Assembly (NCBI RefSeq): GCF_009914755.1
Contig: NC_060935.1
DNA length: 64,000 bases
Origin: the human T2T-CHM13v2.0 reference genome, Homo sapiens
Strand: one strand, 5' to 3'
The first letter of the stretch is position 1. Each line of letters begins with the position of its first letter. A model generated the notes under the pieces. The model saw only the letters and a list, made by a program, of their open reading frames with translations, made no database searches and was not told the DNA's origin. Shown in pieces: positions 2,257-2,419 of this stretch. Made by a program: the position numbers and the translations under genes.

Positions 2257-2419
2257 ACCAGTGTTTATACAAATGATAGAGCTGCTAAATGTAAAATTCC
2301 AGCCCTGGACCTTCTTATTAAGCATTACAGACATCTTTGGTTTTTTCCAGATTTCGGTTTGCTTGTATTTGTCTGGAAGTCACTCAACAGTATTGAATTT
2401 CGTTAACGTAGAGAAGAAA
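2257..2419 (+). pseudogene. PRKDC: PRKDC-derived scrambled-exon (circRNA-type) retrocopy fragment inside 5' LTR U5
   Basis: 2257-2322 reads [22 protein letters not shown]; 2323-2397 reads (A)LQTSLVFS[frameshift][16 protein letters not shown]; 2398-2419 reads FR*RREE. These match recalled DNA-PKcs N-terminal segments, but the downstream segment comes first. Confidence 0.9.

What the first reader, a model, noticed from the sequence alone, without database searches (positions are those of the whole stretch)
2257..2419. Fossil circular RNA: a PRKDC back-splice junction captured inside an ERV9 LTR
Seen: a ~163-nt block foreign to LTR12 interrupts the U5 repeats. Its first part reads TSVYT(N)[16 protein letters not shown]; after ...CTTATTAAG|CATTACAG... 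(2322/2323) it reads (A)[28 protein letters not shown]. Recalled knowledge: DNA-PKcs has ...[36 protein letters not shown]...[25 protein letters not shown]..., so the downstream segment precedes the upstream one. There are no introns, and the breakpoints fall where I recall exon 4 ending and exon 2 starting. Inference: the template was a back-spliced circPRKDC (exons 2-4), not linear mRNA or genomic DNA, so this is molecular fossil evidence of ancient back-splicing in germline or embryo. I recall circRNA-derived pseudogenes, including PRKDC, being reported, so the locus may not be wholly new; the LTR-U5 vehicle and mechanism deserve checking.
Basis: partly seen in the sequence, partly recalled or inferred. 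Interest (0 to 1): 0.95.

Follow-up and report, generated by a model that had tools for sequence, protein, structure and literature searches.

The report
circPRKDC fragment inside ERV9 LTRs
A 163-base piece of the DNA-repair gene PRKDC, copied from a circular RNA, sits at the same spot in both end-repeats of an old endogenous retrovirus, which suggests the virus's own copying enzyme picked it up; the pseudogene itself was probably already reported in 2016.

Summary
Window 2257-2419 is PRKDC exon 4 (nt 10-75), then all of exon 2, then exon 3 (nt 1-22). The 2322/2323 join falls exactly on the exon-4 donor and exon-2 acceptor of the gene on chr8. At 2397/2398 the 91-nt intron 2 is spliced out.

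The two copies lie at the same U5 position, with identical junctions, in the 5' and 3' LTRs of one internally deleted gamma-like provirus.

The insert replaces 9 nt of U5. It is flanked by 3-nt and 7-nt microhomologies, has the same sense as the virus, and has no poly(A) or target duplication. The copies differ from PRKDC mostly by private changes. They are as diverged from each other (K2P 0.085) as the LTRs are (0.10).

Best reading: reverse transcriptase switched template from viral U5 RNA to a co-packaged circPRKDC(2-4) and back, before or at integration.

Dong et al. 2016 already report a human circPRKDC-derived pseudogene, with locus details only in supplements I could not open. The retroviral vehicle and mechanism were not found in print.

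The parts
1655..2563 (+). 5' LTR of the provirus (U3-R-U5), ERV9/LTR12-like
   Evidence: Aligns end to end with window about 7250-8136 (88% identity). It starts with TG and ends with ...GGACACA. The first look found 4677 related places in the genome. Boundaries were read by eye.
1710..1906 (+). U3 tandem repeats carrying CCAAT boxes
   Evidence: TRF finds a 41-nt unit x2 (1710-1792) and a 24-nt unit x5.7 (1770-1906), each with CCAAT. This matches the LTR12 U3 description in passages of PMC11853044.
2257..2259 (+). Left junction microhomology ACC, shared by LTR (..AAGAACC) and PRKDC exon 4 nt 10-12 (..TGTACC)
2257..2322 (+). PRKDC exon 4, nt 10-75, ending on the exon's last base before the GT donor
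   Evidence: 98% identical to C8:48332123-48332188, minus strand. The gene reads ATTAAG|GTAATT. Matches DNA-PKcs aa 112-133.
2323..2397 (+). PRKDC exon 2, complete (77 nt in the gene; 75 here because of a private 2-bp deletion). Its first base follows the back-splice junction at 2322/2323
   Evidence: 95% identical to C8:48333603-48333679. The gene acceptor is GAACAG|CATTACAG and the donor TTGAA|GTAAGT. The deletion is absent from the 3' LTR copy.
2398..2419 (+). PRKDC exon 3, nt 1-22. It is joined to exon 2 by a normal splice, with the 91-nt intron absent
   Evidence: A 22-nt match to gene-sense 1671-1692 of L003, 91 nt downstream of exon 2. The acceptor is TTACAG|TTTCGT. Matches aa 78-84.
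2413..2419 (+). Right junction microhomology GAAGAAA, shared by PRKDC exon 3 nt 16-22 and the LTR (GGAAGGAAGAAACTCC)
2567..2584 (+). Primer-binding site, 3 nt after the 5' LTR
   Evidence: The sequence TGGCAACCACGAAGGGAC follows the LTR. Proviral relatives (for example L018) show the same motif after their LTR. The tRNA assignment (Arg) is recalled, not tested.
4505..4891 (+). gag remnant (capsid)
   Evidence: Pfam Gag_p30, E 7.6e-15
6541..7080 (+). env remnant (transmembrane part), in two open stretches
   Evidence: Pfam TLV_coat, E 2.1e-29 (6541-6825) and 1.4e-9 (6829-7080)
7240..7249 (+). Polypurine tract directly before the 3' LTR
   Evidence: AGAGGGGGGA, read
7250..8136 (+). 3' LTR of the same provirus
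   Evidence: 88% identity over query 3-907. Flanks are ATAG (1651-1654) and CTAG (8137-8140), an imperfect 4-bp duplication (3 of 4 bases), read.
7829..7992 (+). Second copy of the PRKDC block, with the same two LTR junctions. Its back-splice junction is at 7894/7895 and its exon 2/3 junction at 7970/7971
   Evidence: 90% identical to 2257-2419. Three-way alignment with the gene. The junction-centred probe hits it at 94%.

Best explanation
**What it is.** A 245-nt circular RNA made of PRKDC exons 2-3-4, formed by an exon 4 donor to exon 2 acceptor back-splice, was present in an ERV9-type retroviral particle. Part of it was copied into the viral cDNA.

**Proposed mechanism (inferred).**
1. Minus-strand strong-stop synthesis was primed at the PBS and ran leftwards through U5.
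2. At the heptamer GAAGAAA, reverse transcriptase left the viral RNA and re-annealed on the same heptamer in PRKDC exon 3.
3. It then copied 165 nt of the circle: exon 3 nt 22 to 1, all of exon 2, across the back-splice junction, and exon 4 nt 75 to 10.
4. It returned to the viral U5 at ACC, skipping 9 viral nucleotides.
5. Strong-stop U5 is the template for the U5 of both LTRs, so the resulting provirus carries the insert twice. The two copies have decayed independently since integration, roughly 15-30 million years ago.

**Shown:**
- the exon content and exact splice-site junctions;
- presence in both LTRs with identical junctions;
- same sense as the virus;
- microhomologies and a 9-nt replacement;
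- no poly(A) and no duplication;
- equal age of insert and LTR pair.

**Inferred:**
- that the template was a closed circle;
- that it was packaged in the particle;
- that the switch happened in the very cycle that made this provirus rather than an earlier one.
For: **Junctions on real splice sites.** The donor of the 75-nt exon is joined to the acceptor of the 77-nt exon at 2322/2323. The 91-nt intron is removed at 2397/2398. Exon 1 was identified, so these are exons 2-4.

**Only circle exons are present.** The sequence beyond both ends of the insert is LTR.

**Both LTRs carry it.** They show the same left and right junctions.

**Unique in the genome.**
- A 64-nt probe centred on the junction finds 2 junction-spanning places, both in this provirus. 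All 3 candidates were scored, and the third is PRKDC exon 4 matching half the probe.
- Of the 40 scored places related to the 5' LTR, taken from 4677 candidates, only the two LTRs of this provirus span the insert. The other 38 stop at about query 603, the left junction.

**Empty site.** 29 of 29 related LTRs read ..GAACC-CACYRGAAG-GAAGAAACTCC... The insert therefore replaces 9 nt and is bounded by ACC and GAAGAAA, which PRKDC shares.

**Three-way alignment with the gene.** There are 5 variable columns private to the 5' copy, 11 private to the 3' copy, 1 shared and 1 three-way. This indicates one capture followed by independent decay.

**Divergence between LTRs, K2P.** Insert 0.085, left LTR part 0.103, right part 0.121. 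The insert is no younger than the LTR pair.

**It is a provirus.** Gag_p30 and TLV_coat lie in order between the LTRs, and a PBS and PPT abut the LTRs.

**Present-day gene architecture favours this circle.** Inverted Alu-like repeats 92-94% complementary over about 300 nt lie 79 nt upstream of exon 2 (intron 1) and 393 nt downstream of exon 4 (intron 4). Exon 5 was placed.

**Literature.** Dong et al. map junctions of expressed circRNAs and name a circPRKDC-derived pseudogene.
Against: **No direct evidence of circularity.** Only 0.67 of a turn was copied, so nothing distinguishes a circle from a linear RNA with repeated exons.

**One shared change.** A G>T at exon 3 nt 7 is shared by both LTR copies. 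It could mean some residence time or extra replication cycles between capture and this integration.

**Possible larger rearrangement of U5.**
- This LTR has an extra U5 unit to the right of the insert.
- All but one of the 28 relatives shown end their LTR shortly after the unit that here lies left of the insert (L014 runs on into a further unit; L023 has an extra segment before its end).
- So the event may have been more than a simple in-and-out switch.
- The units on either side of the insert differ at 5 internal positions where both LTRs agree. They were therefore not copied from one template in that event, or the parent already had three units.
- could not resolve this.

**Microhomology is not specific.** It is also the signature of DNA end joining.

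**Age versus published phylogenetic range.**
- The LTR divergence of 0.10 (0.075 without CpG transitions) is rather high for an element that Dong et al. report as absent from rhesus.
- By recalled figures, human-rhesus neutral divergence is about 0.065.
- Heavily methylated, CpG-rich LTR12 may evolve faster (PMC11853044 passages).

**Limits of the genome search.** It scores only the best candidates, so 'only this provirus' holds at the sensitivity.
Confidence: 0.7

Rival explanations
1. The capture happened at the DNA level in a progenitor provirus. A cDNA of circPRKDC, made by any cellular reverse transcriptase such as L1 ORF2p, was patched into a double-strand break in the U5 of the 5' LTR of an older genomic ERV9 copy by microhomology-mediated end joining. 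That copy was later transcribed and retrotransposed, giving the present provirus with the insert in both LTRs.
For: - Short microhomologies (3 and 7 nt) and a small deletion (9 nt) are typical of end joining.
- One change is shared by both copies, which allows time between capture and integration.
- The circCAMSAP1-derived copy on chr4 is a multi-piece insert that includes a copy of nearby local DNA, which looks like DNA-level templated repair.
Against: - No progenitor copy with the junction exists in this genome.
- The break would have had to fall in the 5' LTR, and the insert would have had to land in viral sense.
- This scenario needs two rare events where the template-switch model needs one.
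Confidence: 0.15
2. The fragment entered one LTR after the provirus had integrated. It was then copied into the other LTR by LTR-LTR gene conversion.
For: Gene conversion between the LTRs of one provirus is known (recalled). One column is shared by both copies against the gene.
Against: - The insert is as diverged between the LTRs (K2P 0.085) as the flanking LTR sequence (0.103 and 0.121).
- 16 of 18 variable columns are private to one copy.
- Any conversion would therefore have had to occur almost at once after integration.
Confidence: 0.05
3. The template was not a circle. It was either a linear PRKDC RNA with exons 2-4 repeated (by trans-splicing, or from a tandem exon duplication in an ancestor), or ordinary mRNA on which reverse transcriptase jumped from the exon 2 start to the exon 4 end by chance. 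Dong et al. raise a similar possibility of RT crossing between close 5' and 3' ends of a structured RNA.
For: - The sequence alone cannot prove closure, and less than one turn is present.
- The two bases before exon 2 (AG of the acceptor) equal the last two bases of exon 4, so a 2-nt microhomology jump on pre-mRNA is formally possible.
Against: - Both sides of the join fall exactly on exon ends. My rough estimate, using a recalled exon count and mRNA length, puts the chance of that at about 1e-4 for random breakpoints on a 13-kb mRNA.
- The neighbouring intron is spliced out, so the template was mature RNA, not pre-mRNA.
- The present genome has single copies of the three exons.
- Inverted Alu-like repeats flank exactly exons 2-4.
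- Dong et al. built their junction set from expressed circRNAs.
Confidence: 0.07

Closest known systems
Human circPRKDC-derived pseudogene (Dong et al., Cell Res 2016, PMC4897178; main text and legends read in full)
   Same: Same parent gene and same defining feature: a non-colinear exon-exon junction in genomic DNA. It is reported present in chimp and gorilla but not rhesus. It is very probably this locus, because the only junction-spanning places in this genome are the two LTR copies here.
   Different: Coordinates, exons and any repeat context are given only in Supplementary Fig. S1C and Table S1C, which I could not open. The main text does not mention ERV9, LTR12, two copies, U5 or junction microhomology. 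It calls the mechanism of circRNA retrotransposition 'mysterious'.
Mouse circRFWD2-derived pseudogenes associated with MMERVK10C LTR retrotransposon sequence (same paper)
   Same: A back-splice junction is embedded next to or in LTR-retroelement sequence, with few A residues at the 3' end. The authors suggest a link to retrotransposons.
   Different: There are 33 high-confidence copies in mouse, so the carrier amplified. Here there is a single provirus. No mouse genome was available to compare junction anatomy.
Retroviral transduction of host RNA by non-homologous copy-choice (template switching) during reverse transcription (classical model; recalled, no paper read)
   Same: A host RNA co-packaged in the particle, two switches at short homologies, the insert in viral sense, and inheritance by both LTRs when the switch is in R-U5.
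   Different: The classical cases involve read-through or linear mRNAs and usually coding oncogene sequence. Here the donor carries a back-splice junction, the insert is 163 nt, non-coding in context, and sits in U5.
L1 reverse-transcriptase template-switch chimeras and ordinary processed pseudogenes (recalled)
   Same: An intronless copy of spliced host RNA in the genome.
   Different: There is no poly(A) tail and no target-site duplication. Instead 9 nt are lost. The insert sits in both LTRs of a retrovirus, which L1 insertion after integration would not give.
Templated sequence insertions at repaired double-strand breaks (recalled)
   Same: Short pieces copied from RNA or distant DNA, with microhomology and no duplication.
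   Different: This would have to act on a progenitor 5' LTR and be followed by retrotransposition. See the first rival explanation.

Membership tests
circRNA-derived pseudogene (as defined by Dong et al. 2016) | Genomic exon-exon junction in reversed (non-colinear) order, lying exactly at a donor and an upstream acceptor | tested here: met
   The exon 4 donor is joined to the exon 2 acceptor at 2322/2323 and again at 7894/7895.
circRNA-derived pseudogene (as defined by Dong et al. 2016) | Introns removed, and only circle-resident exons present | tested here: met
   The 91-nt intron 2 is absent at 2397/2398. No exon 1 or exon 5 sequence is present, and the flanks are LTR.
circRNA-derived pseudogene (as defined by Dong et al. 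2016) | No canonical poly(A) tail | tested here: met
   The insert ends in GAAGAAA, which continues as LTR sequence. There is no A run.
circRNA-derived pseudogene (as defined by Dong et al. 2016) | The parent circRNA is actually expressed | not testable with these tools
   No circBase or RNA-seq data are available here. Dong et al. built their junction set from expressed circRNAs. Literature searches for an exon 2-4 circPRKDC gave nothing usable. Inverted Alu-like repeats flank exons 2-4.
ERV9 / LTR12 long terminal repeat | U3 tandem repeats of about 41 nt with CCAAT, a GATA-type motif and a GTGGGGA motif | tested here: met
   TRF finds a 41-nt unit x2 and a derived 24-nt unit x5.7, all with CCAAT. 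GTGGGGA is seen in the 5' LTR and TCTGTGTCTAGCT in the 3' LTR. The motif list comes from passages of PMC11853044.
ERV9 / LTR12 long terminal repeat | U5 with a variable number of 72-bp B elements | tested here: inconclusive
   TRF reports no 72-nt period. By eye and alignment, U5 holds repeated units of about 124 nt. Their number varies among relatives.
ERV9 / LTR12 long terminal repeat | Membership of the high-copy LTR12 family, judged by similarity to a curated consensus (Dfam) | not testable with these tools
   No repeat library is available. The genome holds 4677 first-look candidates related to this LTR. The abstract of PMC11853044 states about 5,000 LTR12 elements. The subfamily is not determined.
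ERV9 / LTR12 long terminal repeat | Class I (gamma-like) internal genes, and a PBS for tRNA-Arg | tested here: inconclusive
   Gag_p30 and TLV_coat were found. The PBS is present at 2567-2584, but its tRNA was not tested (Arg is recalled).
Retroviral copy-choice recombinant (transduced host RNA) | The insert is within the transcribed viral genome, in viral sense, and is present in both LTRs with identical junctions when it lies in U5 | tested here: met
Retroviral copy-choice recombinant (transduced host RNA) | Short homology at both crossover points, and no target duplication around the insert | tested here: met
   ACC on the left and GAAGAAA on the right. 9 nt are replaced relative to 29 of 29 empty relatives.
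Retroviral copy-choice recombinant (transduced host RNA) | The donor RNA was packaged in the particle | not testable with these tools
   This needs an experiment.
L1-mediated processed pseudogene | A 3' poly(A) tail and a 7-20 bp target-site duplication | tested here: not met
   Neither is present. The target lost 9 nt.

The most novel reading that the evidence does not exclude
What has been called 'retrotransposition' of circular RNAs in mammals may not be a process of its own. It may be a by-product of retroelement reverse transcriptases switching template from their own RNA onto a nearby circle and back.

On this reading, the ERV9 provirus is a caught-in-the-act example. It would show that ancient primate retroviral particles packaged host circRNAs, and that U5 strong-stop synthesis was the capture step.

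The other human case named by Dong et al., circCAMSAP1, also lies in sense inside a retroelement (L1 ORF2). It replaces 3 nt with no duplication. The mouse circRFWD2 copies ride with MMERVK10C. Together these fit one rule.
Probability: 0.45. Interest if true: 0.7.

Novelty: already known. Interest (0 to 1): 0.5.

Why it matters
A genomic back-splice junction is rare hard evidence that a given circRNA existed millions of years ago, and that circRNAs can re-enter the germline genome.

The paper that reported such pseudogenes left the mechanism open. The anatomy here points to a concrete and testable mechanism: copy-choice by a retroviral reverse transcriptase on a co-packaged circle. The relevant features are:
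- the same insert at the same U5 site in both LTRs;
- viral sense;
- microhomology at both crossovers;
- a 9-nt replacement;
- the same age as the LTR pair.

It also gives a minimum age for PRKDC exon 2-4 circularisation. It suggests that other host fragments inside LTRs or L1s should be screened for back-splice junctions.

The pseudogene as such is very probably already published, so the added value is the mechanism, not the existence of the locus.

Tried and rejected
**Steps that gave nothing or were closed**

Identity of that locus with this one is inferred, not seen.
- Frame 1 of window 2322-2393 gave no PDB match. A private 2-bp deletion shifts the frame after 10 residues. The shifted frame matched.
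- An 18-residue PDB query was too short.

**Literature searches**

- An exon 2-4 circPRKDC: the 10 of 70 papers listed had no relevant title or abstract.
- The much-studied circ-PRKDC paper PMC7751295 has no passage on exons or coordinates.
- 'PRKDC' plus 'LTR12': 5 papers, 4 listed, none on this topic judging by titles and abstracts.
- circRNA plus template switching plus retrotransposition: 5 papers, none judged by its listing to describe retroviral capture of a circle.
- 'circRFWD2' plus 'MMERVK10C': only the Dong paper.
- 'circPRKDC' plus 'pseudogene': 4 papers, namely the Dong paper, two reviews and one cancer review. Listing only.

**Origin of the U5 units flanking the insert**

- I tested whether the two units come from different ERV9 subfamilies, which would suggest a heterozygous particle.
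- Mean identities to 26 and 29 relative units did not discriminate. This is left open.

**Considered and rejected**

- L1-mediated insertion after integration: rejected (no poly(A), no duplication, both LTRs).
- Late gene conversion: rejected on divergence.
- Rolling-circle copying: no repeated segment, because only 165 of 245 nt are present.
- In the circCAMSAP1 side check, the chr1 primer hit (L068) shared nothing further with CAMSAP1 and was dropped as chance.
The chr9:123.7 Mb source of one piece of the chr4 insert could therefore not be fetched.

Full report
**1.

Window 2257-2322 translates to a peptide that matches DNA-PKcs residues 112-133. The match is 21 of 22 residues identical, seen in 6 of 6 PDB sequences returned. 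Window 2350-2418 matches residues 62-84.

A DNA search of the window's own genome with the 163 nt gave four places, with all four candidates scored. The genome is human T2T, and the window is C11:38254001-38318000. The four places are:
- the query itself;
- a 90% identical copy 5.6 kb downstream, at window 7829-7992;
- two exons of PRKDC on chr8, minus strand (E 5e-26 and 1e-23).

The part that comes first in the window is the exon that comes later in the gene.

**2. The junctions are splice junctions**

I read the gene in sense orientation.
- The upstream exon is 77 nt (..GAACAG|CATTACAG ... TATTGAA|GTAAGT).
- A 91-nt intron follows.
- Next comes a 93-nt exon (TTACAG|TTTCGT ... ATTAAG|GTAAGA).
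- 1.2 kb further on is a 75-nt exon (AACCTAG|AACACT ... TTATTAAG|GTAATT).

The window reads TTATTAAG|CATTACAG at 2322/2323. That is the last base of the 75-nt exon joined to the first base of the 77-nt exon.

At 2397/2398 it reads TATTGAA|TTTCGT, which is the ordinary splice of the 77-nt exon to the 93-nt exon.

The ATG exon (aa 1-51 plus one base, GT donor, CpG island) lies upstream. It is 51 of 51 identical to DNA-PKcs 1-51. The three exons are therefore coding exons 2, 3 and 4, and a circle of them would be 245 nt.

The window holds 165 of these nucleotides: exon 4 nt 10-75, exon 2 entire, and exon 3 nt 1-22.

**3.

Window about 1655-2563 and about 7250-8136 align end to end (88% identity).
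- The first is followed by a primer-binding site (2567-2584).
- The second is preceded by a polypurine tract (7240-7249).
- Between them lie a Gag_p30 remnant (4505-4891) and TLV_coat remnants (6541-7080) on the same strand.
- Most of pol is missing.

The LTR has CCAAT-bearing U3 tandem repeats. The first look found 4677 related places in the genome. Both fit the description of ERV9/LTR12 in a 2025 review (passages read). No repeat library was available, so the subfamily is not assigned.

The PRKDC block has the same left and right junction in both LTRs.

**4. Anatomy of the insertion site**

In 29 of 29 related LTRs fetched with the sequence to the right of the insert, the site is uninterrupted. 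It reads ..GAGACCAYGAACC-CACYRGAAG-GAAGAAACTCC...

In this provirus the nine middle bases are replaced.
- The left boundary ACC (2257-2259) is shared with exon 4 nt 10-12.
- The right boundary GAAGAAA (2413-2419) is shared with exon 3 nt 16-22.
- The PRKDC-only sequence is 2260-2412.
- There is no poly(A), and there is no duplication around the insert.
- The insert has the sense of the viral transcript.

Of the 40 scored places related to the 5' LTR, 38 stop at the left junction. Only this provirus spans the insert. A 64-nt probe centred on the back-splice junction finds only the two LTR copies as spanning matches.

**5. Timing**

A three-way alignment with the gene gives:
- 5 variable columns private to the 5' copy, including a 2-bp deletion;
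- 11 private to the 3' copy;
- one shared (G>T at exon 3 nt 7);
- one three-way.

The K2P distance between the LTRs is 0.102 over 882 aligned nt, or 0.075 without CpG-context transitions. It is 0.085 for the PRKDC part and 0.103 and 0.121 for the LTR parts to its left and right.

The insert is thus as old as the LTR pair. It was there when the two LTRs were made, or was homogenised immediately afterwards.

With commonly used primate neutral rates (recalled), this means roughly 15-30 million years. Dong et al. report the homologous sequence in chimp and gorilla but not rhesus. The divergence sits at the high end for that pattern. LTR12 is CpG-rich and heavily methylated, which may inflate it.

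**6. Mechanism**

The U5 of both LTRs descends from the minus-strand strong-stop DNA copied from the 5' R-U5 of the genomic RNA. This is established retrovirology.

A pair of template switches during that synthesis explains all of the following with a single event:
- the viral sense of the insert;
- the two microhomologies;
- the 9-nt loss;
- the double presence;
- the single locus.

The switches would run from viral U5 onto a co-packaged circPRKDC at GAAGAAA, round the back-splice junction, and back onto U5 at ACC. I put this at about 0.7.

The rivals are:
- a DNA-level patch into a progenitor 5' LTR followed by retrotransposition (about 0.15);
- early LTR-LTR conversion (about 0.05);
- a non-circular template (about 0.07).

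One open point remains. This LTR carries an extra U5 unit to the right of the insert. All but one of the 28 relatives shown end their LTR shortly after the unit that here lies left of it (L014 runs on into a further unit). The two units differ at 5 internal positions where both LTRs agree. Unit number varies among relatives. I could not decide whether the extra unit pre-existed or came from a second viral RNA in the same event.

**7. Why this circle**

In today's gene, an Alu-like repeat ends 79 nt upstream of exon 2 in intron 1. An inverted partner lies 393 nt downstream of exon 4 in intron 4. They are 92-94% complementary over about 300 nt. Exon 5 was placed, so the partner really is in intron 4. 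This is the usual architecture that promotes back-splicing (recalled). Whether these repeats were present at the time of capture is unknown.

**8. What is known**

I read the main text and legends of Dong et al. 2016 in full.
- They define circRNA-derived pseudogenes.
- They map 40-bp junctions of expressed circRNAs to the genome.
- They name human circPRKDC- and circCAMSAP1-derived pseudogenes.
- They note LTR enrichment around the mouse circRFWD2 copies.
- They call the mechanism mysterious.

Locus details are in supplements that I could not open. Searches for PRKDC with LTR12, and for circRNA with template switching and retrotransposition, found nothing on a retroviral vehicle, judging by listings only.

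I therefore rate the pseudogene as already known. The both-LTR anatomy and the mechanism were not found in print within the library searched.

**9. Side check**

I used a published circCAMSAP1 primer to find the chr4 copy.
- It contains slightly more than one turn of the exon 2-3 circle, with two back-splice junctions.
- It is embedded in sense inside L1 ORF2 as part of a 758-nt composite insert.
- The composite replaces 3 nt of the L1, judged against an intact L1 relative, with no duplication.
- The composite also holds a 149-nt piece 95% like chr9:123.7 Mb.
- It also holds a 149-nt copy of sequence 950 nt downstream in the same locus.

So both human cases lie inside a retroelement in sense orientation, with a small replacement. 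The local-DNA piece in the chr4 case leaves a DNA-level origin open there.

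Noticed in passing
L070 (G000:C4:33205417-33208726), minus strand; insert at L070 1671-2428, CAMSAP1 part about 1814-2258: The circCAMSAP1-derived pseudogene holds slightly more than one turn of the exon 2-3 circle, with two back-splice junctions. It sits in sense inside an L1 ORF2 as part of a 758-nt composite insert. 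The composite replaces 3 nt of the L1 and has no duplication. It also contains a 149-nt piece 95% like C9:123698652-123698800 and a roughly 149-nt copy of sequence 950 nt downstream.
   Followed up: partly
L066 (G000:C8:48327000-48336400): arms 4432-4731 and 6759-7062: An inverted Alu-like repeat pair, 92-94% complementary, brackets PRKDC exons 2-4. One arm lies 79 nt upstream of exon 2 and the other 393 nt downstream of exon 4. Further inverted pairs within intron 1 could compete with it.
   Followed up: partly
window 2137-2259 versus 2413-2535 (and 7709-7831 versus 7986-8108): The LTR has an extra U5 unit to the right of the insert. All but one of the 28 relatives shown end shortly after the unit to the left of it. 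The two units differ at 5 positions shared by both LTRs. Whether the extra unit arose in the capture event is unresolved.
   Followed up: partly
window 2564-7249: The provirus interior is only about 4.7 kb. It has gag (Gag_p30) and env (TLV_coat) remnants but no pol domain among the 13 open stretches scanned, so most of pol appears to be deleted.
   Followed up: partly
window 1264-2463 and 3542-4180: The RefSeq 'enhancer' features supplied with the finding cover the 5' LTR, including the PRKDC insert, and part of the proviral leader. Whether the insert contributes to the enhancer call was not examined.
   Followed up: no
window 2404 and 7977: The single change shared by both LTR copies against PRKDC (G>T at exon 3 nt 7) turns the GAA codon into TAA. 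It must predate the divergence of the LTRs. It could be an RT error near the switch point, or time spent in a progenitor.
   Followed up: no
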